Origin: Minisyncoccota bacterium
GTDB lineage: Bacteria; Patescibacteriota; Minisyncoccia; Phycocordibacterales; UBA9973
Direction of reading: 5' to 3'
Assembly (NCBI GenBank): GCA_039915165.1
Contig: JBDSNU010000017.1
Location: 68,041 to 119,155, forward strand
Length of the DNA stretch: 51,115 nucleotides
The notes below the pieces were generated by a model, which saw only the letters and a list, made by a program, of their open reading frames with translations, was not told where the DNA came from and ran no database searches. Position numbers and translations under genes: made by a program. Positions 26,126 to 41,000 of the stretch are shown here, in pieces (the stretch's first letter is position 1; every line of letters starts with the position of its first letter).

Positions 26126-27235
26126 ATGGTTGTAGTTAAACCTAAACAATTTGATACATATTTTTTTGGTATTGTTTTACTCATTTCCGTAATTGGTATT
26201 TTCTCATTCGTTTCTGCATCATTAGGAATTTTGGCACACAGTGAGACGAAGTTTTACGGCGTCTTGTTTGGTCAAATTGTATTAGGGTTTATCGGTGGCC
26301 TAACAGCTATGTGGTTCGCCATTAAAATCCCATATCATTTTTGGCGCAATCATGCTTTTTTTATTTTCATAGCAACATTGATTTTGACTTTAGCTGTATT
26401 TATTCCGCATCTCGGTTTCGCTCATGGTGGTGCTCGTCGCTGGATTTCTGTACTCGGCGTTTCATTTCAGCCAGCTGAATTATTAAAATTAGGATTTGTA
26501 ACGTATTTTGCTGCATGGCTTGCATGGACTAGTAAGAAGCAAGAAGAGTTTAAATATAAATTATTGCCGCTGATTATCATGCTTGGTCTTGTTGCAGGGG
26601 CATTATTGTTACAGCCTGATACAAAAAGTTTGATCCTAATTACCGCAGCTGCTTGTAGTATGTTATTTGTTTCCGGTGTATCGTGGAAGAAAATCCTCGG
26701 TATCGTTGGTATCGGTATCGTTGGCATCATCTTATTGGCACTTGTACGCCCATATCTGATGAATCGTATCAAGACATATATCAATCCTTCAAGTGATGCA
26801 CAAGGTGCTTCATATCAGCTGCAACAGGGATTAATTGCAATTGGTAGTGGTGGCTTAGTGGGAAGAGGGCTCGGTCAAAGTGTTCAAAAGTTTAATTACT
26901 TGCCTGAGCCACAAGGGGACTCAATCTATGCAGTGATTGGGGAAGAGTTTGGTTTTATCGGCAGCGCATTGCTCGTAGTGCTGTATGTCTTCCTTTCAAT
27001 TCGTGGATATAAAATTGCCATGCAGTCCCGCGATATGTTCGGGCAATATTTAGTTGTCGGTATTATTACAATACTTGTCGCACAATCATTTTTGAATATG
27101 GCATCATTGGTTGGATTATTCCCGCTGACAGGCGTTCCACTAGTCTTCATCTCACAAGGTGGCACGTCACTCCTTATCGCACTCTTTGCTTCAGGGATGG
27201 TGCTCAATGTTTCCAGATATCAAAAGAAAGTGTAA
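26126..27235 (+). CDS. ftsW: SEDS family peptidoglycan glycosyltransferase FtsW
   Basis: GARRWI, FQPAELLK, LLQPD, YLPEPQGDSIYAVIGEEFG, TGVPLVFISQGGTS; between mraY and murG. Confidence 0.93.
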   Translation: MVVVKPKQFDTYFFGIVLLISVIGIFSFVSASLGILAHSETKFYGVLFGQIVLGFIGGLTAMWFAIKIPYHFWRNHAFFIFIATLILTLAVFIPHLGFAHGGARRWISVLGVSFQPAELLKLGFVTYFAAWLAWTSKKQEEFKYKLLPLIIMLGLVAGALLLQPDTKSLILITAAACSMLFVSGVSWKKILGIVGIGIVGIILLALVRPYLMNRIKTYINPSSDAQGASYQLQQGLIAIGSGGLVGRGLGQSVQKFNYLPEPQGDSIYAVIGEEFGFIGSALLVVLYVFLSIRGYKIAMQSRDMFGQYLVVGIITILVAQSFLNMASLVGLFPLTGVPLVFISQGGTSLLIALFASGMVLNVSRYQKKV

Positions 27236-27247
27236 AATAAGGATATT

Positions 27248-28381
27248 ATGAAAATTTTGTTGATAGGTGGAGGAACTGGTGGGCACGTATATCCATTAAT
27301 TGCGATTGCAGAAGAGCTCAATCGTATTGCTGATGAAGAAAAAATTGCCAATTTTAAGTTGTATTATATGGCTGACGCGCCATTTGATCAAAAAGCACTC
27401 GATGAACAATTTATTACCTTTATTCCTATTACAGCAGGGAAGTTGCGTATATATTTTTCATTGCAAAACTTTTTTGACCTTTTTAAGACATTCTTTGGCA
27501 CTATTGGCGCTTTTTTCAAATTATTTAATCTCTACCCTGATGTCATTATTAGTAAGGGTGGCTATGCTAGTTTTCCAGTATTACTCTCTGCACGAATTTT
27601 GCGCATCCCGATTATTATTCATGAATCAGATACAGTACCAGGTCGCGTAAGTCAGTGGTCAGGCAAGTTTGCTCGACGTATTGCATTATCATACCCAGAA
27701 GCGGCACAATATTTCGATGAAAAGAAAATTGCTCTAACAGGACAGCCGGTGCGTAAGAGTATTGCATTTGCTGCTCGTGAAGGTGCAAAAGAATTCTTTG
27801 AACTTGATCCATCTTTGCCAGTGATCGGTGTTATTGGAGGATCCCAAGGTGCAAAAATTATTAATGACACTATTACTTCACTACTCGTAGAGTTGGTACA
27901 AGACTATCAAGTAATTCACCAAGCTGGCCCAAAAAATTATGAAGAAACACTTACTGATGCCGTAGTATTGTTAGGTGAAAGCACGAAGCGTACTCGTTAC
28001 AAAATTTTCCCTTATTTTAATGATCTGCAAACAAAAATGTTTGGTGGAGCTGTAGATATAATTATTTCTCGAGCAGGTTCATCTCTCTATGAGATCGCAG
28101 CTTGGGGCAAGCCTTCTATTATCATTCCTATTCCGGTAACAAATTCACATGGAGACCATCAGCGCAAAAATGCGTACCACTACGCCCGTACAGGCGCATG
28201 TGTAGTTATTGAACAAGCCAACCTTACTCCTTCGGTATTGAAAAATGAAATTGACTTACTGTTAACACACAAAGATCAATACGATGCGATGGCGGAACGT
28301 GCCAAAAACTTTTATAAGCCAGATGCAGGACGACTTATTGCTACTGAAGCAATCGCTATCGCACTACAACACGAAAAATAA
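27248..28381 (+). CDS. murG: Undecaprenyl-PP-MurNAc-pentapeptide GlcNAc transferase
   Basis: GGGTGGHVYP, KGGYAS, HESD..PG, GGSQGA, ISRAG, HQRKNA. Confidence 0.96.
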   Translation: MKILLIGGGTGGHVYPLIAIAEELNRIADEEKIANFKLYYMADAPFDQKALDEQFITFIPITAGKLRIYFSLQNFFDLFKTFFGTIGAFFKLFNLYPDVIISKGGYASFPVLLSARILRIPIIIHESDTVPGRVSQWSGKFARRIALSYPEAAQYFDEKKIALTGQPVRKSIAFAAREGAKEFFELDPSLPVIGVIGGSQGAKIINDTITSLLVELVQDYQVIHQAGPKNYEETLTDAVVLLGESTKRTRYKIFPYFNDLQTKMFGGAVDIIISRAGSSLYEIAAWGKPSIIIPIPVTNSHGDHQRKNAYHYARTGACVVIEQANLTPSVLKNEIDLLLTHKDQYDAMAERAKNFYKPDAGRLIATEAIAIALQHEK

Positions 28382-28384
28382 AAA

Positions 28385-29260
28385 TTATTCCGCAGTATTT
28401 TTTCTTGAAAGGTATCCGTAATTTTGAGAATAGACGAAAGTACCTGATGCTCCAATAAAGAAGACTTGTGCAGAGTAGTAAATCCATAATAGTAGGCCAA
28501 CAACTGAACCGGCTGCGCCGTATTCATTTGTACCTGCAAATGAAGTGATGTACCACGATATCAAGAATTTACCGATGAGGAATAGTATAGCGGTGCCAAA
28601 AGCACCAATAACAATTTCTCTATGTGGTAGTTTGGTATCAGGAAGAATTTTGTATATCAAACTAAAGAGTACTGTGGTAATCAATAAGGTAGCAACGATA
28701 TTTATAACCTCAATCAGTAGGCGGTTTTGCAGTAATGCAGGTAATGGGCCTTGATAAAACGACAACAATACGGTGAATGCGACTGAAAACAATAGCAGTA
28801 ATGCACACAATAAGATTAAGAAGAGGGAAATGAAACGCTCTCTAATGAAGTGAAGCACTGTATGTGTTCGACTTTGTGTTAATGGTGCACGACCATCAGG
28901 TAGGCTCCATAGTTCATCGAGGTCATTATTTAGCTCTGCCAATACGCTTAATGCGGCTATAATAAGAACCACCCCGCCGATGATAGTCGCTATAGTTCCA
29001 GCACTCGCAATATAGCTATTATTAATTAATCCTTGAATTACACCGGCTAGGTTTGTACCGATGGTGATATTTAATGTACGACTAATTGCTAGGGCTGTAG
29101 TGTGTCGATCAAAGATTGATCTTACGATAGCAGTAATTAAGATAAATAATGGTGCAACTGAAAAAATTGCATAATAAGAAATCGCTGCCCCCATTCGTGA
29201 CGCGCGCTTGCTTCGCCAATGATCAAATGTTTCTCCAACAAATGTAGTTACCTTATGCAT
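28385..29260 (-). CDS. YihY/virulence factor BrkB family membrane protein
   Basis: GAAISYYAIFSVAP, YKILPD, YGAAGSVVGLLLWIYYSAQVFFIGA; likely start MHKVTT at 29260. Confidence 0.9.
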   Translation of the reverse strand: MHKVTTFVGETFDHWRSKRASRMGAAISYYAIFSVAPLFILITAIVRSIFDRHTTALAISRTLNITIGTNLAGVIQGLINNSYIASAGTIATIIGGVVLIIAALSVLAELNNDLDELWSLPDGRAPLTQSRTHTVLHFIRERFISLFLILLCALLLLFSVAFTVLLSFYQGPLPALLQNRLLIEVINIVATLLITTVLFSLIYKILPDTKLPHREIVIGAFGTAILFLIGKFLISWYITSFAGTNEYGAAGSVVGLLLWIYYSAQVFFIGASGTFVYSQNYGYLSRKNTAE

Positions 29261-29453
29261 CGAGAATAGTATCTTGTTGGTTATCATCGTCACCGATAAT
29301 TCCGTCTTCGAGCTGCTTTTTAGAATCAGCATCAGTTAATTCTTCCTCGGTCTGATTTTTTTCTATAGCATCAATTGGGTTACCGTTTTCGTCTTCTTCA
29401 ACATCGATATCTAGTGTTTCTTCAGGAACATATGTACCATTTTGGTCATCCAT
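29253..29453 (-). CDS. 66-aa very acidic hypothetical protein
   Basis: D/E-rich ORF whose stop overlaps the YihY start (translational coupling). Confidence 0.65.
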   Translation of the reverse strand: MDDQNGTYVPEETLDIDVEEDENGNPIDAIEKNQTEEELTDADSKKQLEDGIIGDDDNQQDTILDA

Positions 29454-29528
29454 AGCATGTAAAATTATTATAATATATTGTTATTATAACACTTTTCTAT
29501 TGTCCCGCTATGTGCTTTAATGGAATAT

Positions 29529-29777
29529 ATGCATGACCATACAAACAGAACACTGATAGTAGTAATGATTATTATTCTAATTTTGATACTAGTAGCGTAC
29601 TTCCTTCCTCGCGGTGGTTATACGGCCTACTATCCAACAACTGTACAGCGTACTACTCCTGTAATCCGCACTACAGTACCAGTTGGTGGAACCCGAACTA
29701 CAACGTATACCACTACTCCTGTTACGACATATCAGGAAACCACAACAACTTCTTCACAAAACTCAGTTACAAATTAA
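29529..29777 (+). CDS. Small single-TM protein with Thr-rich tail
   Basis: Hydrophobic LIVVMIIILILILVAYFL then T-rich low-complexity tail; start 29529 or 29520. Confidence 0.65.
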   Translation: MHDHTNRTLIVVMIIILILILVAYFLPRGGYTAYYPTTVQRTTPVIRTTVPVGGTRTTTYTTTPVTTYQETTTTSSQNSVTN

Positions 29778-31630
29778 TCCTTATAAAATTCTCTTAAAAA
29801 ATGCTGCGTCTTATCTCTCTCCACAAGAGCTCGATCTGCAGATTGTTCTAGGAGGATAAGTAGTGAGTCTAAAAAGGTTACATCAGAAATGACTGTAATC
29901 TTTTTTAGTATTTCTCTCGCTACTCTTATATGTTCAAGAATAGTATGAACAACATTGTCAATATGGATTTCCCAAAAGTGCTCTTGTAACATAGAGATAT
30001 CAAGTGTTTGCAATGCTTGTATCATAGGCGCACTGATGCTGTTAACGAAGCCTTGTTCAATGTCATGGTGCCAGTCATGGGCATCATCATTAAGTTGTTT
30101 TGCGATGAGGTACTGTATGAAAAAATCCTCAATCAATATTGCTTCTTCTTTGTGTCCAAGTTTGTGACAGAGAAGGATAGGACCTATGGCATGTCCAAGT
30201 GACTTCTGTGCCAGAATCTTTTTATCGGCATAGTCCGGGATAGTTGTTGGAACGCTACCATGCTCGATTCGACAATGTGCATATTCCCATTGTGTTGCTT
30301 CATTTATTCCATCTAGTATTCTTTTTACTATTGCATATTCTTCTGTATTGCAAATAATGTGGAGAGTATCGACCATGGCCAGTATACAAATGTTTGCTAA
30401 AGGCAATTGAGATACATAGTCTTCGCCATCAATAATGTGATCATAAATACTATACCCGATCCACCCCAGTGTATTTATAACAGCTAGGTGTTGTATAAGT
30501 TCTTTGGAAATATTCCCTTGACTGATAAGTTTTTCGGCAAACCAATACGACAGTAATTGAATTTCATTTGAAGGATCTTTGGTTGTTAATGCGCCAAGTG
30601 CTTTTTGTAATTGTATTTTAAGCGCTTCATTATCAGTAATTGTAAGGCATGTGGTTGCCATGGTTCCTATAAAAATTTTTTCCTCGATATCAGGCTGAGG
30701 AGAAGAAAGATGGGCAATAGACTTTTGGCTGAATACTGTTAAGGCCTCAATACAGCACATACTGACATATGCATCACAACTGCTATAAGTAGTTGTATTA
30801 TTTACAATACTCTCAATATAGATATCTGTTGCAGGCCACTGGCCCTTAGTATGTGATCGAAGTATATAATCGATCGCTCGTTCAAGTGATTCAAACGGCA
30901 CATCGTTACTCAATAGTATAGTGATTACAAATGCAGTATGTAAAGGAGAGTTCCAGTGGCCGGCACTATTTTGCATTGCCAGAATTTTTTCAATTACGTC
31001 TTTTTTATATATGCCATTATATGTTTTTGTAATGAAATATAAGCGAGTAATTTCATCATGATAATACGTTGATTTTGTACCGATGTGTATAGTGTGGTCG
31101 AAATACGTTTCCAGTGTAGGAAGAGTAATATTCAACATATGTAAAAAAGTAGCAACATTACTGTTTACTACAACATCGCTCTCTTGCCAGACAGGATTCT
31201 TCAGATCAGTAATCCATGTTTTATATGGACCGCCCGGTAGAGTTTCTTGTTGTATTAAAAGTTCAATAAGTCGCGCGACTACTTCTTCTGTGACAAATTC
31301 TGGCGCCGATTTGTATAGTGCTTGCATGGCAACAAAAGTGTCGTCGATATCATCAGGGTAGGGAATGGTGCTGTACTCGGCACTATTTCTTTGCCAATAG
31401 TTTACTGTGTACTGAGGTGAGAGCTGTTGAAGAATACATGCCGCTGCCTTCTTTTGAATCGATGACCATATTGAGTGATCATTACTGGTTGCAGTAGATA
31501 AGATCAGGCTGGTATAAAACGTTGTTGGTTTGCCTGTATTACTTAAAAAACTACCATTAGTTTGTTGTTGCCTGGCAATAAAATCATATGAATCATTAAT
31601 GGTTTGTTGAATGTGTTTGGTCGGTATCAT
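29774..31630 (-). CDS. Fusion of class II terpene-cyclase/prenyltransferase-beta-like (alpha/alpha barrel) domain and class I isoprenoid-synthase/ComQ-like prenyltransferase domain
   Basis: N-half: QW-like repeats (RQQQTNGSF, AMQNSAGHW, YILRSHTKGQW) and YPDDIDDT (DxDD). C-half: IYDHIIDGE (FARM-like), LAQKS, QLNDDAHDWHHDIEQGFVN (SARM-like). Likely start MIPTK at 31630 overlapping the kinase 3' end. Confidence 0.8.
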   Translation of the reverse strand: MIPTKHIQQTINDSYDFIARQQQTNGSFLSNTGKPTTFYTSLILSTATSNDHSIWSSIQKKAAACILQQLSPQYTVNYWQRNSAEYSTIPYPDDIDDTFVAMQALYKSAPEFVTEEVVARLIELLIQQETLPGGPYKTWITDLKNPVWQESDVVVNSNVATFLHMLNITLPTLETYFDHTIHIGTKSTYYHDEITRLYFITKTYNGIYKKDVIEKILAMQNSAGHWNSPLHTAFVITILLSNDVPFESLERAIDYILRSHTKGQWPATDIYIESIVNNTTTYSSCDAYVSMCCIEALTVFSQKSIAHLSSPQPDIEEKIFIGTMATTCLTITDNEALKIQLQKALGALTTKDPSNEIQLLSYWFAEKLISQGNISKELIQHLAVINTLGWIGYSIYDHIIDGEDYVSQLPLANICILAMVDTLHIICNTEEYAIVKRILDGINEATQWEYAHCRIEHGSVPTTIPDYADKKILAQKSLGHAIGPILLCHKLGHKEEAILIEDFFIQYLIAKQLNDDAHDWHHDIEQGFVNSISAPMIQALQTLDISMLQEHFWEIHIDNVVHTILEHIRVAREILKKITVISDVTFLDSLLILLEQSADRALVERDKTQHFLREFYKD

Positions 31631-33058
31631 ATAAGGGTAGCGATATAATAAATTGTGTCCCAGTACCTTGAGTGCTATATACAACTATTGTTCCATTAAA
31701 TTCATCTTCAATAATTTCTTTTGTTTGAGATAATCCAAACCCTGTTCCTTTCTCATATGTTTTGGTGGTGAAAAAGACAGTAAATATATGCTTTTGTGTC
31801 TCCTCACTCATTCCGCACCCATTATCACTAATAGTAATCTGTAACGAATTAGTATCATGATTAATTTCTTGTGAGATGAGAATTTTCCCTGTCGATGCTC
31901 TATCCTCACATGCTTCAATTGCATTCATAAGTATATTCAAGATAGCTTGATAAAACTTAATTGCATTACCTTGAATCGTGATGGTACCACTACTGATGTG
32001 CTGTATTTCTACATTTGCTTCACGTGCTTTATATTGGACCATATCAATAGCATCCAAGATCTCTTGTTCAGGAGAAAAAAGAGTGCAGTCATCTCTAGTG
32101 CTAATTTGTTTTCGCACTGTTTCAATATAACTCCCCATGCGTTTACTGGCAGTCACCGCTTTGGCAATGTGTTCTTTTACTTCCGGCACATGCTCTGGCG
32201 AATGCTCCAGCCGCTCGACATTATTTGCCACACTATGCAGCGAATTCATGAGATCATGAAATATGCCAGTCGAAAGTTTGCCGAATTCTGCAAAACGATA
32301 CAGCTGCGATATTTTTTCTTTTTGTAACTCCTTTAATTCGCTTGTTCGTTCTTCAACCTTGATTTCCAATAGATTTCTTTCTTCCAGTAATGCTTGTTCA
32401 GAAATACGTGCTCTATGTAGCGAGCGTTCCATTTCGCGATTAGAAAGCCAAGAGACAGCAGTAATCACAAACAATACAAAAGATAGTTGAATGGGTTCAT
32501 GCATGGAGATCCAAGCATGCTTCCAAGATAGATTGGCATGAATAATTTTTTCAATTTGTAAATAAGAAACTGAACAGATAGTGGCAATGTTAATAATAGT
32601 TACAATTACAGAAAATCTTGTTGAAACTAAAATACCTGCAAAGACAATAATTAAAACATAACTAATACCTATAAATGGTAACCATATTGACCATTCAATC
32701 GCACCATATGTTGTACCGATAAAATAAATTAATAGAAGTAAAAAACTACTAAGTTTATGGTGTCCCTTACGTGACAATGCAAGCAAACAAATATTATAAT
32801 AAGGAGAGTGAAATAGGTAAACGGAATTCCATCATAAAGTGCACCCTTACTTATTGCTGCAAGTCCAATGTATATGTCTAGTACAATCAATAGTCCAGTT
32901 ATACAACATAATAATGTATTTAGAATAAATTCATTGCGTTTTATGTCCTCATTCTCTGAGTGTGGTTCAATAAATACCGCATACATAAAATGAATACCGT
33001 GCCGAATCCAAGCCTTAATGCTGAAATGGGCTAGACTGTTTCGATGGCGGGTATTCAT
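31596..33058 (-). CDS. Multi-TM sensor histidine kinase, split by an apparent 1-nt frameshift near 32786
   Basis: H-box FHDLMNSL, N-box NILMNAIEA, DNGCGM, FFTTK, GTGFGL, GTQF. ORFs 32729-33058 and 31596-32786 join (..IIFV|LLALSRKG..) if one T is added in TTTGTTTG. Confidence 0.88.
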
Positions 33059-33078
33059 TTTATGTTACTTAAAAAATT

Positions 33079-33195
33079 TTAATTTTCTCCACCTTCCCAG
33101 GGTAAAAAACTCCCTTCAGAATAGGCCGCCTGTTTTGCCTTTTCTGCAGTGCGAGAATGTGGAGTGGTAAGGATGGCTTCAATGACTTTGTTCAT
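33079..33195 (-). CDS. Unannotated 38-aa peptide MNKVIEAILTTPHSRTAEKAKQAAYSEGSFLPWEGGEN, candidate ComX-like pheromone/RiPP precursor
   Basis: Manual translation; fills the regulator-kinase gap on the same strand; TATACT -10 at 33250-33245; single Trp near the C-terminus. Confidence 0.7.
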   Translation of the reverse strand: MNKVIEAILTTPHSRTAEKAKQAAYSEGSFLPWEGGEN

Positions 33196-33216
33196 GCTGT
33201 GATTATTATTAGCTAA

Positions 33217-33288
33217 GAGCTATTCGACTATGTAGCTCAATACTAGTATAGCGAACAGGCGATAAAGGAAATTGTAATATTTTATAAA
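33217..33288 (-). promoter_or_regulatory. Promoter of peptide-kinase-enzyme unit: TATACT -10, no consensus -35, imperfect direct repeats, leader hairpin
   Basis: Minus strand TTATAA-N4-TTACAA-N5-TTTATC upstream of TATACT; GAGCTA-N10-TAGCTC hairpin at 33217-33238. Confidence 0.45.
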
Positions 33289-33963
33289 CTATCTCATTAA
33301 GTCTATCTTATATCCACGACCAGGCACACTGTGGATTAGTTTGGTTTTGTCTGGCATTTCAATTTTCTTTCTTAGATTAAGAATATGTGTCTCAATAGTA
33401 TTTGAAAAAGGGTCTAAGTCAAGGTCCCAGATATGCTCCATGATTTGACCGCGAGTAACAACAACTGACTTATGCTTAAGCATATATTCTAGTAATGAAA
33501 ATTCTTTGCGAGTGAGGTATATGGATTTGCCATCACGGGCAACTGTTTGTTTGGCTGAGTCGAGAATAAGGTCATCGATAGCCATAAGTGAACTTTGTAT
33601 AGTATGTGGGCGACGTAGTACGGCTTGTATACGCGCATGTAATTCTTCAAAAGAAAATGGTTTTGAAACGTAGTCATCTGCTCCAACATTGAGCCCACGA
33701 ACTTTGTAAGGAGTAGAGTCAGATACTGACATCATGATGATCGGCGTAGTATAGTCAGACAATCGCAAATCCTCACACACAGCGAAGCCATTTTTCTCGG
33801 GTAGGGAATAGTCAAGCAATATAAGGTCATACTCATTGGTTTTAGCCAAATAAATTCCTCTGGTTCCAGTGTCAGCAATATCAACAGCAAAGCCTTTTTC
33901 CTTGAGGCGCTCTCTGAGGTAGTCTTGTGTGTCCGGCTGGTCTTCTATAACTAAAATACGCAT
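33289..33963 (-). CDS. OmpR/PhoB-family response regulator
   Basis: MRILVIED, LILLD (phospho-Asp), GADDYVSKPF, LTRKEFSLLEY, IETHILNLRKKI, VPGRGY. Confidence 0.96.
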   Translation of the reverse strand: MRILVIEDQPDTQDYLRERLKEKGFAVDIADTGTRGIYLAKTNEYDLILLDYSLPEKNGFAVCEDLRLSDYTTPIIMMSVSDSTPYKVRGLNVGADDYVSKPFSFEELHARIQAVLRRPHTIQSSLMAIDDLILDSAKQTVARDGKSIYLTRKEFSLLEYMLKHKSVVVTRGQIMEHIWDLDLDPFSNTIETHILNLRKKIEMPDKTKLIHSVPGRGYKIDLMR

Positions 33964-34058
33964 AAATGAGGTGGTATCTTTATTATATGGCAGGTATCGA
34001 TGAATAGCGACTGCGTAATCTGGATAAAGGGTCTATTTCCTTGATCTTTTCTTTATGC

Positions 34059-34119
34059 TTGACAAAAAAGCCACTATTGAATACTATTCGAACAGCTAAT
34101 AGTTAGTTTAGCTAAGTAA
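34059..34119 (+). promoter_or_regulatory. Promoter TTGACA-N17-TACTAT with overlapping MarR-type operators
   Basis: -35 at 34059-34064, -10 at 34082-34087; inverted repeats ACTATT-N9-AATAGT (34083-34103) and ATAGTTAG-N5-CTAAGTAA (34099-34119). Confidence 0.65.
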
Positions 34120-34550
34120 TGGCCACAATACCGACACAATCATTTGATATAAAGGAGTTGCAGGAACTTATTGGTATCTTCAAGAGAACCATGAGTGACT
34201 TATACAAAAAAGAAACAAGCGTACTGCATTGTTCTCTTTCGCATTTGGAAGTAATGCAATTTATTGGCGAACATACCAACCCTTCTATGAAGGATATTGC
34301 GAGTTACCTGCGCATCACACCACCTTCTGTGACTACAATTATCGAAACAATGGTGGAGCAAGGGTTGGTCAAGCGTGATACTGGCTCAGGTGATCGCCGT
34401 ACTATTCATGTAGTATTGACTCCCAAAGCAGTGAAGCTTTCAACCACACTGCGTGCAAAAAAAAAGGCCATGCTTACGCTTATGCTAAAGAAATTAAGCG
34501 CTGAACAAAAACAACAGTTATCAGATATTATTAAAGCTCTCGTCAAATAA
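34119..34550 (+). CDS. MarR-family transcriptional regulator
   Basis: SMKDIASYLRITPPSVTTIIETMVEQGLVKR...DRR..HVVLT. Confidence 0.93.
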   Translation: MATIPTQSFDIKELQELIGIFKRTMSDLYKKETSVLHCSLSHLEVMQFIGEHTNPSMKDIASYLRITPPSVTTIIETMVEQGLVKRDTGSGDRRTIHVVLTPKAVKLSTTLRAKKKAMLTLMLKKLSAEQKQQLSDIIKALVK

Positions 34551-34552
34551 AT

Positions 34553-35536
34553 ATGAAATCAATTTTTAATACACCTAAAATAATTATCCCACTGGTGGCA
34601 ATTATTGCTATCGTTGCCGGAGTAGTTGCATTCCGCACAGTAGGCAAGGCGCCTATAGTAAACCTTCCTGCAGTTTCTGAAGTTACTGCTTCTGGAACTA
34701 TCGTTACTAATTCATCCGACAATACAGTTGATCTGGCATTTCCGAAAAGTGGACGTGTAGCATCTGTATCAGTAAAAGTAGGTGATCATGTTGTTGCTGG
34801 TCAAACGCTGGCAGCACTTGATGCTGGCGATGCAGCAGGAGTAGTAACACAGGCAAAAGGGGCACTTGAACTCGCAGAAGCACAATATGCTTCTCAAGAT
34901 GTGCAATACGCCAATGCAAAGAAACAGCAAGATGTACTTGTACAGAATGCTCTTCGTACTGTTCGATCAAGTGGAATTGTTGCAACGCCTACAGTTCAGG
35001 ATGACAGTCACATTCCGCTTATCACAGGTACATATACCTGTAGTGCAGAAGGATCATATGTAATAACCCCATATCCATCTGGTGCTAACTCAGGATTCTC
35101 ATTTACCTATAGCGGTCTTGAAAGTGGTAGTGGAGTAGTAACATTTAGTACACCTCAGCCACTTGGTTCTTGTGGTCTATATGTACAGTTCACTCAAGGG
35201 TTTGCTGGCGCAACGAAATGGACTATTGATGTTCCAAATACAAAGTCAGCTACCTATGTAACTAATAAAAACAATTATGATCTTGCTGTAACGACTCGCG
35301 ATCAAGTGCTTAGTCAATTTGCAGCAAACCTTGGACAAAATGGTTCATCTGCTGCGAATACTGCAAAGGCTGCTATTGATACTGCGCGTGGCGTATATCA
35401 GGCCGCACTAGGCGCATACAAAAACAATGTCATCGTTGCTCCTACAAGCGGCACAGTATCGTTCATTGATGCAGATCTAAAAGCTGGGCAGTCAGTTACT
35501 CAGAGCAAAACAGTTATCAGTCTTACTACAAAATAA
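34553..35536 (+). CDS. HlyD/membrane-fusion-like protein with inserted disulfide-containing beta domain
   Basis: N-terminal TM, LAFPKSGRVASVSVKVGDHV lipoyl half, coiled coil, C-terminal IVAPTSGTV; insert with two Cys. Confidence 0.8.
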   Translation: MKSIFNTPKIIIPLVAIIAIVAGVVAFRTVGKAPIVNLPAVSEVTASGTIVTNSSDNTVDLAFPKSGRVASVSVKVGDHVVAGQTLAALDAGDAAGVVTQAKGALELAEAQYASQDVQYANAKKQQDVLVQNALRTVRSSGIVATPTVQDDSHIPLITGTYTCSAEGSYVITPYPSGANSGFSFTYSGLESGSGVVTFSTPQPLGSCGLYVQFTQGFAGATKWTIDVPNTKSATYVTNKNNYDLAVTTRDQVLSQFAANLGQNGSSAANTAKAAIDTARGVYQAALGAYKNNVIVAPTSGTVSFIDADLKAGQSVTQSKTVISLTTK

Positions 35537-35540
35537 ATTT

Positions 35541-36176
35541 ATGGAACAAACTAAAAAAGAAGGTATTTTTTCAAAACCATGGGTGCAGAGCCTTGTCGGC
35601 GTTATCGTCATTGTACTCGCACTTATTGGAGTATTAGTATGGAAGTCTCTTACATCTCATGTATCAATTGATAAGTCCCAGATCACCGCACCAACTATTA
35701 CCATCGGTCCAGAAGTATCTGGTATCTTGGCAGAAGTATATGTAAAACCAGGAGACTTGGTTACAGTAGACGAACCCATTGCTCGTGTTGGTAGTGAAAT
35801 CTTGTCTGCCAAAATTGCCGGTATTGTCATCACTACACAAAACACACCCGGACAAGTATTTGCTCCCGGTATGCCAGTGGTAACAATGATTGACCCAACT
35901 GCATTGCGTGTTGTTGGAACTATTGCTGAAGATAAAGGTCTTTCAGATCTCAAGATTGGTCAGCCAATAACATTTACAGTGGACGCATATGGTAGTCAGA
36001 AATTCACTGGAATCATTGACGAGATCAGTCCTACTTCAAATGATTCAGGTGTTGCATTTACTATTTCTGATCAGCGCGAAACAAAGAACTTCACAGTGAA
36101 GGCACGCTTTGATGTTAGTGCTCATCCTGAATTTAAGAACGGCATGTCAGCTAAGATGACTGTCTATATAAAGTAA
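35541..36176 (+). CDS. Short EmrA/HlyD-family membrane fusion protein (no helical hairpin)
   Basis: TM, SGILAEVYVKPGDLV joined directly to LSAKIAGIV, beta-barrel LKIGQPITFTVDAY. Confidence 0.85.
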   Translation: MEQTKKEGIFSKPWVQSLVGVIVIVLALIGVLVWKSLTSHVSIDKSQITAPTITIGPEVSGILAEVYVKPGDLVTVDEPIARVGSEILSAKIAGIVITTQNTPGQVFAPGMPVVTMIDPTALRVVGTIAEDKGLSDLKIGQPITFTVDAYGSQKFTGIIDEISPTSNDSGVAFTISDQRETKNFTVKARFDVSAHPEFKNGMSAKMTVYIK

Positions 36177-36177
36177 T

Positions 36178-37668
36178 ATGGAGACTACAGTTGAAAAGAA
36201 AGATACCCTCAAGTGGTGGATTCTAGTCACTGTTATTGTCGGAACATTTCTCGGACGTCTCGATCAAACTATTGTTAACCTGGCATTGCCAAACATCATT
36301 AGTGATTTTCGTATCAGTGTTAGTTCTGCTGGATGGATTGCCACTGCATACATTCTAGCGAATGCGATCTTTGTGCCTATTTGGGGTAAGCTTGGAGATA
36401 CTATCGGACGTAAAAAAGTCTATATCATTGGCTTCACAGTATTCATCATTGGATCAGTATTGGCTGGTTTTGCCTGGAACCTCCCATCGATGATTGTATT
36501 TCGCGTTATCCAAGCGATTGCTGGTTCTGCTGACTATCCCACAGCTATGGCAATTCTTGCAGTGACTTTCAAGGAAGGCAAAGAACGCGGACAAGCACTC
36601 GGTATCTGGTCTAGTTCATTTGCTGCGGCTAGTGTGTTCGGACCACTATTGGGAGGTCCATTGATTGATCACTTCGGTTGGCGTTCAGTATTTTTGATCA
36701 ACCTACCAGTTGGTATTGTGGGATTACTGATGGCGATGAAATACATCCATGAGTCTCGCTCTGAAATAAAGTCCACATTCTTTGACTGGTGGGGCGCTAT
36801 TACTCTTGGTGGAATGCTTTCATCACTTGTACTTGTGCTTGATAAAGGTGCTGAGTGGGGATGGATGTCAGTATCAAGTTTGATTTGTTACTTCTTGATT
36901 GTTGTTCTTACAGGGTTATTTATCCGCATTGAAAATAATGTATCTGAACCGATTGTTGATCTACGTTTCTTCAAGATTCCTGCATTTGTTAATACACTCG
37001 TCAACAACTTTGTAGTCTTCATGGGATTGATGGGTGGATTGTTCTTGTTGCCAGTTTTTGCTCAAACCTTCCTTGGATACAATGCAACACAAACAGGATA
37101 CTTGTTTATGCCAATGGCTGCCGCACTCATGTTGGGTGCGCCTATTGGTGGTGCATTAGCTGGTAAGGTACAAGCTCGCTATGTAATTTTTGCTAGTACC
37201 ATTGTTACTGCAATAGGGCTCTATATGTTTTCTTTCTTGGATCCGAAATCGACCGCACTGAGTTTGATGATCCCGCTGTGTGTTATGGCATTTGGTCTTG
37301 GCTTCGGTATGGCGCAACGTACAAACGTTATCGCTTCTGTTGTTGATCAGCATGAAATTGGTATTGCATCATCGATCCTTGCACTCGCACGTAATGTTGC
37401 CGGTGCATTTGGTATTGCAGTATTTGGTACCATTCTGACAAATCGTACAAAGGCAAACATTATGAGTATCAATAGTTTTAGTCATCTTTATAGTCACACA
37501 CCATTGAATATTCAAAAGTTTATTACATTGATTGAACTTAAGGCGCAAATTAATGCCTATAACTATGTCTTCGTAGTGGTGAGTATAGTGGTGGCGGTCG
37601 GAGCATTCTCCGTGCTATGGCTCAAATTAAAAAATGAACGAACAGATATTACTGTACATGTAGAATAA
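36178..37668 (+). CDS. DHA2 (EmrB/QacA-type) MFS efflux transporter
   Basis: LDQTIVNLALP, WIATAYIL, GKLGDTIGRKK, GPLLGG, WRSVFLINLPVG. Confidence 0.93.
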   Translation: METTVEKKDTLKWWILVTVIVGTFLGRLDQTIVNLALPNIISDFRISVSSAGWIATAYILANAIFVPIWGKLGDTIGRKKVYIIGFTVFIIGSVLAGFAWNLPSMIVFRVIQAIAGSADYPTAMAILAVTFKEGKERGQALGIWSSSFAAASVFGPLLGGPLIDHFGWRSVFLINLPVGIVGLLMAMKYIHESRSEIKSTFFDWWGAITLGGMLSSLVLVLDKGAEWGWMSVSSLICYFLIVVLTGLFIRIENNVSEPIVDLRFFKIPAFVNTLVNNFVVFMGLMGGLFLLPVFAQTFLGYNATQTGYLFMPMAAALMLGAPIGGALAGKVQARYVIFASTIVTAIGLYMFSFLDPKSTALSLMIPLCVMAFGLGFGMAQRTNVIASVVDQHEIGIASSILALARNVAGAFGIAVFGTILTNRTKANIMSINSFSHLYSHTPLNIQKFITLIELKAQINAYNYVFVVVSIVVAVGAFSVLWLKLKNERTDITVHVE

Positions 37669-38038: not shown

Positions 38039-41000
38039 ATGAAAAACAATAAAATCCCAGGACGTCTTTTTTATAAGGTAGTTGCTGCGATTTTGTTGCC
38101 TACATTTTTTCTCAGTAGTATTACAGCTGTCTTTGCAGAAGAGTCTGTTACTACTACGCAGTCTGAGACAGTAACTCAAACCCCAAATACGACAGCTCCA
38201 GAATCTTTAGACACAATTACAACTACTACACCATCAGATACAACTTCCATGGAGCAGCCAAGTGTTGCTGTGTCAAAACCAGCTACCGATCCAATCGAAT
38301 CGTTAAAAACAGAAAATATAAAACTCGAAAAAACATCACCATCAGGTGCAAAGTCAGCAACAGCTTCAAGCTCCATTGCAGGTACGTCGTCATCTAGTAG
38401 TGCCCCTGTTCAACAAACTGATCAGCCACAATTATCGGTTGCATCAAAAAGTAAATTAATTCCACAGGTTGATAATACGACAGGCGCTTTGCGTTATAAT
38501 TTCCCTGTTACTATTGCTAAAGGAAGAAATAATATGACTCCTGATATCGCGCTGCAATATAATAGTCAAAATATCGCCACTGATTCAATTGTGGGATATG
38601 GATGGAATATTTCCATACCATATATCCAGCGAGAAAATAAGCACGGTGTGGACCAGATCTATTCAAGTACATATAATGATTTTACAACAAGTGATAATGG
38701 CGAGTTGGGGCAAATCAGTGGTGTAAACTATCAACTTAAGTCCGATGATGGGTCATTTTCAAAATATGTATTTTCTTCGAACACCTGGACTGTTACAGAT
38801 AAAACTGGAGTAGTATATAAATATGGAACAACTGCTGCTTCGCAACAAAATGATTCTGTAACAACTGCAAATGTATACAAATGGATGCTCGATAGTGCCA
38901 CTGATACTAATGGTAATTCAATTTCTTATACCTACTTCAAAGATCAAGGTCAGATTTATCCTGATACAATTACTTATACCAATACTTCTGGTGGCACAGG
39001 AATTTTTAGTGTTGTGTTTACTCATGCAGCTGCTGCATCCACCGGGGCGAGCAGTTATGTAACTGGATTTGGAGTTATTACAGGATATAATATTACTGCA
39101 ATAACTTCAAAAATCTCAGGTGTTACTCGTCACAAATATGATCTAACATACGTGAATGGCAGTAACAATAACAAGCAATTATTATCTACGATTATAGAAA
39201 CAGGATATAACACTAGTGGTACTAGTACAGTATTTCCTGCAACTCGTCTTAGTTATACTACGGGTAATGGGAAAACATTTAGTACAACTGCTGCAACATT
39301 GCCAACATATACATTGCCAGGTGGAACAACTCGACAAGATGCACGATTAGGTGACAGTGGCGATAATGCTTATGTATGGCCATATTCAAAAACTGGTACA
39401 TTGATTGATGTTAACGGCGACGGCTATCCTGATTGGATAAACTCTGAGTTGTCTGATTATGCAACTGGGTCAAGCTCTAATGGCAAATTTTATGATGTAT
39501 GGCTTGGTTCAGCGAGTGGTTGGATATTGAGTACATCATGGACGGCTGCAATACCTGTGGATTCAACAGGTAAGGTATATTCATTATCTGACTCTCAAAA
39601 TAATAAGCTTGTTGATATAAACGGCGACGGATTACCTGATTGGGTGATTTCAACACCAGGTTCAACAGTTAATTTTGATACCGCTGTAGTATGGCTCAAC
39701 AATGGTTCAGGGTGGACAAAGACGACTACTTGGACAATGCCAACTATGACTGTTTCTGGAACAGTATATGGAGTTGCTGTTAATTCCTCAACTCCGGTAG
39801 TACATGGTGTTCCAAATAATATTGGTCCAAGTGGTTATAACTACTTCACTAATCTTGTCGATGTAAACAATGATGGGCTTGTTGATTTAGTGCAAACATC
39901 ATCAGACAATTTCGGTGCTTCAACTATTTCAGATCACCACGCAGTGTATTTAAACACAGGAACTGGTTGGACTAAATCCACCACCTGGACAATGCCAGTG
40001 CATCCAACAGGAAGTGGTACATATTTCGGATCATCAGTAGATAATTTAAGTGGCACAAATGTAATTCTTGATGTGAATGGCGACGGTTTACCTGATTGGA
40101 TTGAAACAGGTGGGTATAGCGCATCATCAACAGAAAATTATGTACTTTGGTTGAATACAGGTGCAGGATGGGTACGCAGTACAACGTGGGCACTTCCAGT
40201 TCATACTGTAACACCTCCAACAGGAGCGTTTCCGGAGCAGGGTGTGCGCCTCGGTTCTAGTTACATAATTTGTGACTACGGCAGCGGATCATATAACTGT
40301 GCGGTTCGTGTCAATGCATTGGCTGATGTGAATGGCGACGGCTTACCTGATTTTGTTGAGACATACAACAACCTTTCTGGAAGTACTGTATCATTCAGTG
40401 AATATAATGACGTTTGGTTGAATAATGGTAAGAATGGATGGATTCAAAAAACTTCTTGGTATATGCCACAATATTACGGCTATGGCACACCAATTCGATT
40501 AGGTAATGACGGGGTGTATAGTGTACAACTTTCTGATGTAAACAATGATGGACTTTTAGACTTTGTTGCTAGTTGTGATTGCGGTAGAACAGGAAGTGCC
40601 TATTACCCGCAATCATCGAACGTATTTTTAAATAGTGGGTCAGGATGGAGTGTTGCTGGTTACACCTTACCAAACAGAAGTGCTAGTTATCCCTATGATG
40701 GTTCTGTACTTGGATTTACTGATTTTACTTACGGAGTAAATGTACCAGTAACTCACCACAGAACTGCAGTGCTACAAGATATAAACAATGACGGTTCCCC
40801 TGATTGGATTGAATCTAACCAATTTGATACGCCTCCCAATTTGACGCCAAATCCTGCAGCATATGAACGTCATGGAGTATGGAGTAATTCTGCAACACAA
40901 TCAGATCTTTTGTCATCAATTACTTATGATCACGGTGCATCATCTAGTTTTATCTACACTCCACAGGTTATTGTTGATAAAAATGCAACCACTCAGACTC

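What the first reader, a model, noticed from the sequence alone, without database searches (positions are those of the whole stretch)
29774..33963. Candidate new prenylated-peptide signalling system: regulator - Trp peptide - membrane kinase - terpene cyclase/prenyltransferase fusion
Seen: four tightly packed minus-strand genes, namely an OmpR-type regulator (33289-33963), a hidden 38-aa ORF with one Trp near its C-terminus (33079-33195), a multi-TM histidine kinase and an overlapping isoprenoid enzyme. Established: Bacillus ComQXPA uses the same parts list; ComQ, a class I isoprenoid-synthase-fold enzyme, prenylates a Trp near the C-terminus of the small ComX precursor, which the polytopic kinase ComP and regulator ComA sense. 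Differences here: the kinase H-box is HisKA-type (HDLMNSL) and the regulator is OmpR-type, whereas ComP is HisKA_3 and ComA is NarL-type; the gene order differs; and the transferase carries an extra DxDD cyclase-like domain. Inference: an independently assembled quorum-sensing or RiPP circuit in a probable CPR bacterium whose signal is a terpenylated (possibly cyclised-terpene) Trp peptide.
Basis: partly seen in the sequence, partly recalled or inferred. Interest (0 to 1): 0.93.

Follow-up and report, generated by a model that had tools for sequence, protein, structure and literature searches.

The report
Terpene-tagged tryptophan peptide signalling cassette
A tiny hidden gene for a 38-residue peptide with one tryptophan sits between a regulator, a membrane sensor kinase and a two-part terpene enzyme, and the same four-gene set recurs across many ultra-small (CPR) bacteria, which points to a lipid-modified peptide signal in a group where no such system is described.

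Summary
The kinase is split by one frameshift, which is also present in contigs of two public runs.

The 38-aa ORF is a real, conserved gene.
- A peptide HMM found one copy directly upstream of the kinase gene in 69 of 71 evaluable loci. The other two were found by eye.
- Nothing comparable occurs among 12,273 small ORFs.
- Leu9, Arg15 and the single Trp are invariant. The Trp lies 1-6 residues from the C-terminus, and the core between leader and Trp is hypervariable.

The 618-aa enzyme is a fusion of two isoprenoid domains.
- The N-terminal half is a class II terpene cyclase domain with a DxDDT motif. It is homologous to the cyclase domain of bacterial drimenol synthase (E 1.5e-12).
- The C-terminal half has a class I / trans-prenyl-synthase-like fold, Asp-rich motifs and an invariant Gln before the second motif.
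- In 15 of 80 loci a polyprenyl synthase gene abuts the cassette.

Best reading: a ComQXPA-like peptide circuit whose Trp is prenylated and whose prenyl chain is then cyclised.

Fused prenyltransferase-cyclase maturases acting on Trp of ribosomal peptides were published in 2024 (ChrPC/NctPC). The chemistry is therefore a known kind. The CPR-wide cassette with its own two-component system appears undescribed. No biochemical or expression evidence exists.

The parts
33289..33963 (-). OmpR-type response regulator (224 aa)
   Evidence: Response_reg 8.7e-29 and Trans_reg_C 1.1e-23. A homolog lies directly upstream of the kinase, on the same strand, in 53 of 80 loci, and anywhere in the locus in 64 of 80.
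33217..33238 (-). Hairpin GAGCTA-CATAGTCGAA-TAGCTC, 21 nt upstream of the peptide start codon; conserved GTCGA loop with covarying stems in relatives
   Evidence: 21 of 69 peptide upstream regions carry a stem of 5 or more pairs around a GTCG loop, 18-37 nt from the ATG. 200 shuffles gave a mean of 1.2 and a maximum of 4. No Rfam match. Its role is unknown.
33079..33195 (-). Precursor peptide gene (38 aa): conserved N-terminal leader (Leu9, Arg15), variable core, Pro32-Trp33, 5-residue tail
   Evidence: HMM hit E 1.5e-13; 69 hits at E<1e-5, all directly upstream of the kinase, and the next best of 12,273 small ORFs has E 0.4. L9, R15 and W33 are invariant in 65 sequences. It is single copy in the genome. 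The substitution pattern is that of coding sequence.
32729..33058 (-). Histidine kinase, N-terminal fragment (109 aa, first TM helices)
   Evidence: Aligns to residues 1-~93 of the intact 488-aa kinase of L002.
31596..32786 (-). Histidine kinase, second frame (remaining TM helices, H-box FHDLMNSL, HATPase_c); frameshift near 32775-32790
   Evidence: HATPase_c 1.7e-23 and HisKA 0.028. Aligns to L002 kinase from ~97 to 487. The frameshift is present in contigs of two runs.
30626..31630 (-). Enzyme N-terminal domain (residues 1-~335): single-domain class II terpene cyclase, motif D93-D-I-D-D-T98 at 31337-31354
   Evidence: The family profile matches the cyclase domain of drimenol synthase 9mhs_B at E 1.5e-12, with PdDLDDT aligned to PDDLDTT. 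D94, D96, D97 and T98 are invariant. Atlas structure hits are squalene-cyclase-type domains, TM 0.70-0.77 on the hit side.
29774..30613 (-). Enzyme C-terminal domain (residues ~340-618): class I / trans-IDS-like fold; first Asp motif D397..D401 (30428-30442); Q512-x-x-D515-D516-x-x-D519..D523 (30062-30097)
   Evidence: The Atlas model aligns at TM 0.79 and 0.75 to ~300-aa Bacillota 'class 1 isoprenoid' and 'polyprenyl synthetase family' clusters. hhalign against trans-IDS aligns QLNDD with FQIxDD (E 4.7e-4, probability 32%). 3 of 30 members touch Terpene_syn_C_2.

Best explanation
This is a four-gene cassette (regulator, precursor peptide, polytopic histidine kinase, bifunctional maturase) that recurs in a patchy minority of Patescibacteria. 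Proposed mechanism, with each step marked. (1) Shown by comparative sequence: a ~37-aa peptide is encoded, with a conserved amphipathic leader (invariant Leu9 and Arg15), a hypervariable core and one invariant Trp 1-6 residues from the C-terminus. (2) Inferred: the C-terminal trans-prenyl-synthase-like domain of the 618-aa enzyme binds a prenyl diphosphate through its Asp-rich motifs and transfers the chain (probably C15 or C20) to that Trp. The invariant Gln512 and Asp515 before the second motif would play the Trp-recognition role described for ComQ, PalQ and ChrPC-type enzymes. (3) Inferred: the N-terminal class II cyclase domain protonates the distal double bond through its DxDDT motif and cyclises the attached chain into a drimane- or labdane-like ring system. 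(4) Inferred from gene order only: the lipidated peptide, whole or trimmed, leaves the cytoplasm and is sensed within the membrane by the ~6-TM kinase encoded immediately after it. The kinase phosphorylates the OmpR-type regulator, probably feeding back on the cassette. In this particular genome the kinase is frameshifted, so sensing may be lost while the peptide and enzyme genes remain intact.
For: Peptide gene: 69 HMM hits at E<1e-5, all directly upstream of the kinase gene. 21 of them were not in the 48-sequence training set. The next best of 12,273 small ORFs in 993 kb has E 0.4. The two misses, L036 and L039, carry the frame on inspection. One Trp in 68 of 69, tail of 1-6 residues, PW in 52 of 69. 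L9, R15 and W33 are invariant in 65 sequences. Third-position substitutions dominate (418/357/729). The peptide stays with the kinase even where the regulator is elsewhere (14 loci) or where the pair is inverted relative to the enzyme (L075). Gene order: the kinase is directly upstream of the enzyme in 68 of 71 loci with more than 1500 nt of upstream sequence. Only these three large gene families recur (80, 76 and 63 loci); the next most frequent is in 15. That next family is a canonical polyprenyl synthase (PF00348, 8.2e-55) abutting the cassette in 15 of 80 loci, which would supply the prenyl donor. Enzyme: N-domain homology to the drimenol synthase cyclase domain, with the catalytic motif aligned. 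The C-domain has a class I isoprenoid fold in the Atlas model and invariant Asp motifs and Gln. Published precedent: ComQ, PalQ and the P domain of ChrPC all target Trp and share a Gln before the second Asp motif, and ChrPC/NctPC carry a fused cyclase domain that cyclises the attached prenyl (PMC13290415, section 2.4 and passages). PalPXQ is a kinase-precursor-prenyltransferase cluster (PMC10853753, passages). The cassette is one of only about 3 kinase-like and 2 OmpR-like ORFs detected in this 782-kb genome.
Against: There is no experimental or expression evidence. No listed run is RNA. The kinase of this genome is frameshifted, and the frameshift is reproduced in two runs' contigs. L034 also has a split kinase. 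The genome shows no IspH, HMG-CoA reductase, GHMP kinase or UppS, and only one trans-prenyl synthase, so it has no evident route to IPP/DMAPP. No exporter or leader peptidase recurs with the cassette. Sequence evidence for the C-domain is weak: PF00348 does not ring on it, the profile finds no solved structure (best E 0.096, spurious), and hhalign probability is only 32%. Co-variation of peptide core with the sensor domain is weak and no stronger than with the catalytic domain (Spearman 0.25 vs 0.26). The enzyme is in only 14 of 401 sampled Patescibacteria genomes.
Confidence: 0.55

Rival explanations
1. The cassette makes a terpenylated ribosomal peptide whose main job is not signalling. It could be a membrane-active or host-directed lipopeptide, or a cell-surface anchor of an epibiont. 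The two-component system would then only regulate production, possibly with product autoinduction as for nisin or subtilin.
For: The same evidence for the peptide and the maturase applies. Many cores are strongly hydrophobic (for example L018, L021, L035 and L058), as expected of membrane-inserting lipopeptides. The published ChrPC/NctPC products are treated as natural products rather than pheromones (PMC13290415, passages). Peptide core and kinase sensor domain show no specific co-variation.
Against: No immunity, export or further tailoring genes recur. The peptide gene is tied to the kinase gene rather than to the enzyme (L075 and the 14 loci with a displaced regulator). A very small genome spends one of about three kinases on it.
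Confidence: 0.27
2. The enzyme makes a free cyclic terpenoid, and the small protein is an unmodified accessory of the kinase, such as a small regulator or connector. Its conserved Trp would then serve binding rather than prenylation.
For: The N-domain's closest solved relative makes a free sesquiterpenoid. The C-domain could be a class I synthase or a prenyl-chain elongase (weak Terpene_syn_C_2 hits in 3 of 30). The peptide is always next to the kinase.
Against: The invariant Gln before the second Asp motif is the feature reported for Trp-directed enzymes (PMC13290415). A lone invariant Trp near the C-terminus behind a conserved leader and a hypervariable core is the anatomy of ComX and RiPP precursors. 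Leader divergence tracks the enzyme (Spearman 0.36 and 0.42) more than the kinase (0.24) (weak).
Confidence: 0.12
3. The 38-aa ORF is a chance open frame in a regulatory spacer.
For: It is short, has no Pfam or NCBIfam match and has no obvious Shine-Dalgarno sequence before its ATG.
Against: It is conserved in 71 of 71 evaluable loci across divergent lineages, with invariant residues and a coding substitution pattern.
Confidence: 0.01

Closest known systems
ComQXPA quorum sensing of Bacillus subtilis (ComQ prenylates Trp of ComX; sensed by ComP, relayed by ComA)
   Same: It has the same four roles: a small precursor with the modified Trp a few residues from the C-terminus, an isoprenoid-synthase-fold transferase, a polytopic kinase and a response regulator. 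There is no dedicated exporter in the cluster. The peptide core is hypervariable.
   Different: Here the enzyme carries an extra N-terminal class II cyclase domain. The kinase has HisKA-type rather than HisKA_3 signatures, and the regulator is OmpR-type rather than NarL-type. The order is regulator-peptide-kinase-enzyme. The precursor is about 37 aa. No sequence-level link to ComQ could be tested, because no ComQ sequence was available to the tools.
ChrPC / NctPC bifunctional prenyltransferase-cyclase RiPP maturases (Hubrich et al. 2024, Chem 10:3224; known to me only through review PMC13290415 and recollection)
   Same: A prenyltransferase fused to a single-domain class II terpene cyclase. 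ChrPC's P domain is trans-IDS-like, prenylates an internal Trp of a ribosomal peptide with C10-C20 donors, and its C domain cyclises the attached chain. That is the chemistry proposed here.
   Different: Homology to ChrPC was not testable because the sequence and the paper are not held. Here the cyclase domain is N-terminal. The cassette is CPR-wide, minimal, and always joined to a kinase and usually a regulator. Whether the 2024 genome-mining survey already lists CPR clusters could not be checked. The Atlas feature search does list 621-691-aa look-alike clusters in Bacteroidota and Chloroflexota (scores 0.92-0.94), a lead that the families are related.
PalPXQ of Paenibacillus alvei (PMC10853753)
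   Same: It is a cluster of a histidine kinase, a precursor with a conserved Trp and a trans-IDS-like Trp prenyltransferase.
   Different: PalX has a long NHLP leader and a strictly C-terminal Trp, and PalQ has no cyclase domain. Here the Trp is never terminal (tail of 1-6 residues in 69 of 69).
Bacterial drimenol / drimenyl diphosphate synthase cyclase domain (PDB 9mhs, 9m7d); Pfam AstC-like_C (PF28380)
   Same: It is the closest solved relative of the N-domain (E 1.5e-12 over 276 profile positions) and the acid motif aligns. PF28380 is precomputed on 7 family members.
   Different: That enzyme fuses the cyclase to a HAD phosphatase and acts on free farnesyl diphosphate. Here the partner domain is an isoprenoid-synthase fold and the proposed substrate is peptide-bound.

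Membership tests
ComQXPA system | Small precursor peptide with the modified Trp near the C-terminus | tested here: met
   Trp33 of 38. In 69 of 69 peptides the last Trp is 1-6 residues from the end.
ComQXPA system | ComQ-family (polyprenyl_synt-related) transferase | tested here: inconclusive
   PF00348 does not hit the enzyme. The fold and the second Asp motif agree. No ComQ sequence was available for direct comparison.
ComQXPA system | ComP-type kinase (HisKA_3 dimerisation domain) | tested here: not met
   Only a weak HisKA hit (0.028) and no HisKA_3 hit at E<=0.1. The best NCBIfam hits are AtoS/PrsK/ZraS-type.
ComQXPA system | ComA-type (NarL/GerE) regulator | tested here: not met
   Trans_reg_C 1.1e-23 (OmpR type). 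GerE reaches only 0.0052, below its cut-off.
Fused prenyltransferase-terpene cyclase RiPP maturases (ChrPC-like) | One polypeptide with a class II single-domain cyclase plus a prenyltransferase domain | tested here: met
   N-domain, C-domain. The fusion is conserved in 80 of 80 loci.
Fused prenyltransferase-terpene cyclase RiPP maturases (ChrPC-like) | Trans-IDS-like P domain with two Asp-rich motifs and a Gln before the second | tested here: met
   D397, D401, Q512, D515, D516 and D519 are invariant in 29-30 sequences. QLNDD aligns with FQIxDD of trans-IDS. The criterion is taken from PMC13290415, section 2.4.
Fused prenyltransferase-terpene cyclase RiPP maturases (ChrPC-like) | Adjacent precursor peptide with an acceptor Trp | tested here: met
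Fused prenyltransferase-terpene cyclase RiPP maturases (ChrPC-like) | Sequence homology to ChrPC itself; demonstrated prenylation and cyclisation | not testable with these tools
   The paper and the sequence are not held.
Class II terpene cyclase | DxDD(T) general-acid motif in an alpha/alpha-barrel domain | tested here: met
   D94-I-D96-D97-T98 is invariant and aligns to the same motif of drimenol synthase.
Two-component system | Intact kinase with H-box and ATPase domain, plus a receiver-domain regulator | tested here: inconclusive
   The domains are present, but the kinase is frameshifted in this genome. It is intact in most relatives.

The most novel reading that the evidence does not exclude
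This is the first dedicated peptide-pheromone system of the CPR/Patescibacteria. The signal is a ribosomal peptide carrying a cyclised terpene on Trp. The carriers lack any IPP/DMAPP pathway, so the signal would have to be built from isoprenoid precursors taken from the host. Signal output would then report host attachment or host metabolic state as much as cell density.
Probability: 0.3. Interest if true: 0.92.

Novelty: new variant of a known kind. Interest (0 to 1): 0.78.

Why it matters
CPR bacteria are ultra-small, mostly uncultured epibionts. To my knowledge no cell-cell signalling chemistry has been defined for them, and none turned up in the nine literature searches run here. This work gives a concrete, testable four-gene unit with a defined candidate ligand, acceptor residue and receptor, present in about 3.5% of sampled genomes across many lineages. 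It joins two recent threads, Trp-prenylated pheromones of the ComX type and ribosomal peptides with cyclised isoprenoid moieties. It would also add hundreds of natural precursor/maturase pairs for peptide lipidation biocatalysis. The absence of an isoprenoid precursor pathway in the carrier raises a sharp question about where the prenyl donor comes from.

Tried and rejected
The fold statements therefore rest on the Atlas's own model.

C-domain sequence searches.
- The profile against solved structures gave nothing meaningful. The best hit is LegK7 at E 0.096, from a chance QLNDDxxDW string.
- The profile against the 5.8-billion-protein set gave only fragments and shorter forms of the same unnamed family.
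- Re-searching with the full-length profile gave the same 71 CPR proteins, named 'hypothetical', 'terpene cyclase/mutase family' or 'prenyltransferase/squalene oxidase repeat'.
- NCBIfam per-member scans gave no consistent family.

Co-variation of peptide, kinase and enzyme (53 loci; L023 dropped as identical to L022; loci with truncated genes dropped). The correlations are weak and unspecific. Permutations are exceeded, but kinship alone can do that. I count this as inconclusive.

Promoter and terminator scan of 29300-34200: 24 promoter-like sites against 18.4 +/- 4.4 in shuffles, and 3 terminator-like sites against 2.5. This is uninformative.

Rfam on 33000-33400: no match.

Expression: no RNA holder is listed for the stretch. 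I do not use this as evidence either way.

Shine-Dalgarno idea. I considered that the C-terminal 'EGGEN' codons are merely the kinase's ribosome-binding site. I rejected this because the GGAGG-like string lies about 28 nt from the kinase ATG and the peptide is conserved as protein.

Literature. Nine searches were run and found no paper describing this cassette in CPR/Patescibacteria. The primary paper on ChrPC/NctPC (PMC11484575) is not held and supplements are closed. Its genome-mining tables may already list CPR clusters.
- PMC13290415: I saw passages, section 2.4 and part 1 of the reference list.
- PMC10853753: I saw passages only.
- PMC12715784: I saw passages only (a citation).

Full report
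**What is in the window.**
Four genes lie head to tail on the minus strand between 29774 and 33963.
- A 224-aa response regulator (33289-33963) has a receiver domain and an OmpR-type Trans_reg_C domain.
- A 38-aa ORF (33079-33195) reads MNKVIEAILTTPHSRTAEKAKQAAYSEGSFLPWEGGEN.
- A histidine kinase is split over two frames (32729-33058 and 31596-32786).
- A 618-aa protein (29774-31630) overlaps the kinase stop by 35 nt.

The genome holding the window is 782 kb and 98% complete. Its nearest relatives are labelled Candidatus Nomurabacteria.

**The kinase.**
Against the intact 488-aa kinase of the closest locus (L002), the first frame matches residues 1 to about 93 and the second frame matches from about 97 to the end. 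One frameshift near 32775-32790 therefore splits the gene. Contigs assembled from two public runs of one study, at 13x and 23x, carry exactly the same sequence. They may be the source samples, so this is reproducibility rather than independence. The intact homologs have about five to six hydrophobic segments in the first 205 residues and no sizeable extracytoplasmic domain. That is the build of membrane-embedded peptide or lipid sensors.

**The enzyme family.**
The 618-aa protein has no Pfam hit above cut-off. It belongs to a large family of 600-670-aa proteins.
- A word-indexed search found 75 relatives at 27-53% identity.
- An exhaustive search of 50%-identity representatives found 1,592 at E<=0.001, of which 774 are at E<=1e-30.
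- Sources call them 'hypothetical', 'terpene cyclase/mutase family' or 'prenyltransferase/squalene oxidase repeat' proteins.
- An alignment of 29 members has invariant D94, D96, D97 and T98 in PYPDD(L/I)DDT, invariant GGPY-T-W, invariant D397 and D401, and invariant Q512, D515, D516, D519, W520 and D523 in QLNDDAHDWxxD.

**The N-terminal domain.**
The family profile matches the class II cyclase domain of bacterial drimenol synthase (PDB 9mhs_B, E 1.5e-12; 9m7d_A, 2.7e-11) over profile positions 32-307. The family's PdDLDDT aligns on the enzyme's PDDLDTT. The motif has the D-x-D-D-T form that I recall as the general-acid motif of squalene-hopene cyclase. The Atlas's own model (pTM 0.58, pLDDT 0.83) aligns residues 1 to about 305 with single-domain squalene-cyclase-like proteins, at TM 0.70-0.77 on the hit side.

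**The C-terminal domain.**
Sequence evidence is thin.
- A profile of 30 C-domains finds no solved structure.
- Only 3 of 30 members touch Terpene_syn_C_2 and 2 of 30 touch Terpene_synth_C.
- PF00348 does not ring on it.

Structure-level evidence is better. The Atlas model of residues 335-615 aligns at TM 0.79 and 0.75 with roughly 300-aa Bacillota clusters named 'class 1 isoprenoid biosynthesis enzyme' and 'polyprenyl synthetase family protein'. A profile-profile comparison with 16 canonical trans-prenyl synthases aligns only the second Asp-rich region, QLNDDAHD on FQIxDD (E 4.7e-4, probability 32%). I read the domain as a divergent class I / trans-IDS-like fold.

**The small ORF is a real gene.**
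A scan of one genome per species found 274 loci encoding a relative of the enzyme. The best 80 were fetched.
- In 54 of them, plus the window, a regulator and a kinase lie on one strand 106-413 nt apart, and almost all of these gaps contain a 34-41-aa ORF with the same anatomy.
- An HMM built from 48 such peptides was run against all 12,273 small ORFs of the 80 loci plus the whole window (993 kb, six frames). It gave 69 hits at E<1e-5 (68 loci and the window).
- Every hit lies directly upstream of the kinase gene, and 21 were not in the training set. The next best ORF has E 0.4.
- Of the 77 kinase-bearing sources (76 loci and the window), 6 are cut at or within about 80 nt of the kinase start (L026, L027, L031, L032, L041, L056). 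That leaves 71 evaluable, of which 69 have the HMM hit.
- The remaining two show the peptide frame on inspection. In L039 it sits inside a longer open frame. In L036 it has no canonical start codon.

The peptides have these properties.
- They are 34-57 aa long, median 37.
- 68 of 69 have exactly one Trp.
- The last Trp is 1-6 residues from the C-terminus and never terminal.
- Pro precedes the Trp in 52 of 69.
- In a 65-sequence alignment Leu9, Arg15 and Trp33 are invariant. The consensus leader is M-x-x-x-x-x-K-x-L-T-D-K-x-A-R.
- Among nine close relatives, substitutions fall 418/357/729 on codon positions 1/2/3. The core (codons 17-31) differs at 61% of residues against 47% for the leader.
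- The own genome has one copy (E 4.9e-13; next best 1.4).

**Cassette conservation.**
Clustering all ORFs of the 80 loci shows that only the enzyme (80 loci), the kinase (76) and the regulator (63) recur. The next families occur in 15 loci.
- The kinase ends within -200 to +300 nt of the enzyme start, on the same strand, in 68 of 71 loci with more than 1500 nt upstream. The exceptions are L005 (an artefact of an over-long ORF call), L041 and L075.
- A regulator lies directly upstream in 53 of 80 loci and somewhere in the locus in 64 of 80.
- Where the regulator is displaced (14 loci), or where the peptide-kinase pair is inverted relative to the enzyme (L075), the peptide still sits immediately before the kinase.
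- One of the two 15-locus families is a canonical polyprenyl synthase (PF00348, 8.2e-55). It lies immediately after the enzyme, or between the regulator and the peptide gene. A dedicated prenyl-diphosphate supplier inside the cassette is strong contextual support for isoprenoid chemistry.
- The other 15-locus family is ABC transporters. Most of the 15 (7) are the window's near relatives, and these lie a few kb away on the other strand. I do not count them as part of the cassette.

**What is known.**
- A 2026 review (PMC13290415; passages and section 2.4 read) groups ComQ, PalQ and the P domain of ChrPC as trans-IDS-like prenyltransferases. It states that all characterised members target Trp.
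- It notes a conserved Gln immediately upstream of the second Asp motif, implicated in Trp recognition.
- It describes ChrPC and NctPC as fusions of a prenyltransferase with a single-domain terpene cyclase that cyclises the attached C10-C20 chain, citing Hubrich et al. 2024. That primary paper is not held. What I add about it is recollection.
- PalPXQ of Paenibacillus is a kinase-precursor-prenyltransferase cluster with a C-terminal Trp (PMC10853753, passages).

The proposed chemistry is therefore a known kind. Nine full-text searches found no description of this cassette in CPR/Patescibacteria. The Atlas feature search lists look-alike 621-691-aa clusters in Bacteroidota and Chloroflexota (0.92-0.94). 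This is a lead that the CPR family and the published fusions are kin.

**Mechanism.**
I take the peptide as the substrate.
1. Its leader (Leu9, Arg15) docks on the enzyme.
2. The C-domain transfers a farnesyl or geranylgeranyl group to Trp33.
3. The N-domain protonates and cyclises the chain.
4. The product reaches the membrane or the outside and is read by the polytopic kinase.
5. The kinase signals through the OmpR-type regulator.

Only the existence and conservation of the parts are shown. Each chemical and signalling step is inferred.

**Points against.**
- There is no expression or biochemical evidence.
- The kinase is frameshifted in this genome, and split in L034 too.
- No exporter or protease recurs with the cassette.
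- Co-variation is weak and unspecific. The peptide core correlates with the sensor and catalytic parts of the kinase alike (Spearman 0.25 and 0.26), and the leader correlates with the enzyme at 0.36-0.42.
- The genome has no IspH, HMG-CoA reductase, GHMP kinase or UppS, and a single trans-prenyl synthase. The C5 units must therefore come from elsewhere.
- The enzyme occurs in 14 of 401 evenly drawn Patescibacteria genomes including this one (12 of 339 high-quality). It was not found in the two sampled genomes of the same family. It is an accessory trait.

**Verdict.**
I rate it a new variant of a known kind: ComX/PalX-type Trp prenylation combined with ChrPC-type cyclisation, here wired to its own two-component system and spread through CPR lineages. 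I put about 0.55 on the full signalling reading. On its parts I put about 0.97 that the peptide gene is real, about 0.75 that the enzyme puts an isoprenoid on its Trp, about 0.6 that the chain is cyclised, and about 0.5 that the adjacent kinase senses the product. I put about 0.27 on a non-signalling lipopeptide regulated by the kinase pair, and about 0.12 on a free-terpene enzyme with an unmodified small partner of the kinase.

Noticed in passing
window 33217-33238 (-) and the equivalent place in 20 loci (e.g. L005, L009, L019, L040, L063, L068): A hairpin 18-37 nt upstream of the peptide start codon has a conserved loop (A/G)GTCGA and stems that differ between loci but stay complementary. 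It is found in 21 of 69 upstream regions, against a mean of 1.2 and a maximum of 4 in 200 shuffles. There is no Rfam match. A conserved loop with covarying stems suggests an RNA element in the peptide's 5' leader rather than a DNA operator.
   Followed up: partly
whole genome G000: The 98%-complete genome has one trans-polyprenyl synthase (C8:278301-279017). It has no detectable IspH, HMG-CoA reductase, GHMP kinase or cis-prenyltransferase (UppS). There is therefore no evident source of IPP/DMAPP, or of undecaprenyl phosphate. The window's ORFs at 26126-28381 look by eye like FtsW and MurG; I did not test this.
   Followed up: partly
L034:4475-5954; window 31596-33058: The cassette's kinase is split into two overlapping frames in a second, unrelated locus (L034) as well as in the window. 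Recurrent loss or phase-like switching of the sensor was not examined.
   Followed up: no
window 34119-37668 (+): Divergent from the regulator lie a MarR-family gene (Pfam 3.4e-12), two ORFs of 327 and 211 aa, and a 496-aa multi-TM ORF. By eye this looks like an efflux unit. MarR homologs keep this position in 5 near relatives.
   Followed up: no
window 38039-44632 (+): A 2,197-aa ORF, by far the largest in the window. It was not analysed.
   Followed up: no
window 29253-29453 (-) and 29520-29777 (+): Just past the enzyme's stop lie a 66-aa very acidic ORF and an 85-aa ORF with one hydrophobic segment and a Thr-rich tail. Neither has a family match at a useful E-value. Their conservation was not checked.
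   Followed up: no
L020, L022, L025, L048, L049, L066 and others: Several loci with the complete CPR-type cassette come from records titled 'uncultured Gammaproteobacteria', 'Vitreimonas sp.' or 'Methylomirabilota', some on 1.3-1.4 Mb contigs. These labels look unreliable, or else the cassette reaches beyond CPR. This was not resolved.
   Followed up: no
P0253, P0282, P0295 and similar: There is a set of 440-530-aa proteins, some on long contigs of 76-407 kb, that match the C-domain over 93-100% of its length at 24-30% identity. They are too short to hold the full N-terminal cyclase domain, so a variant architecture may exist. This was not examined.
   Followed up: no
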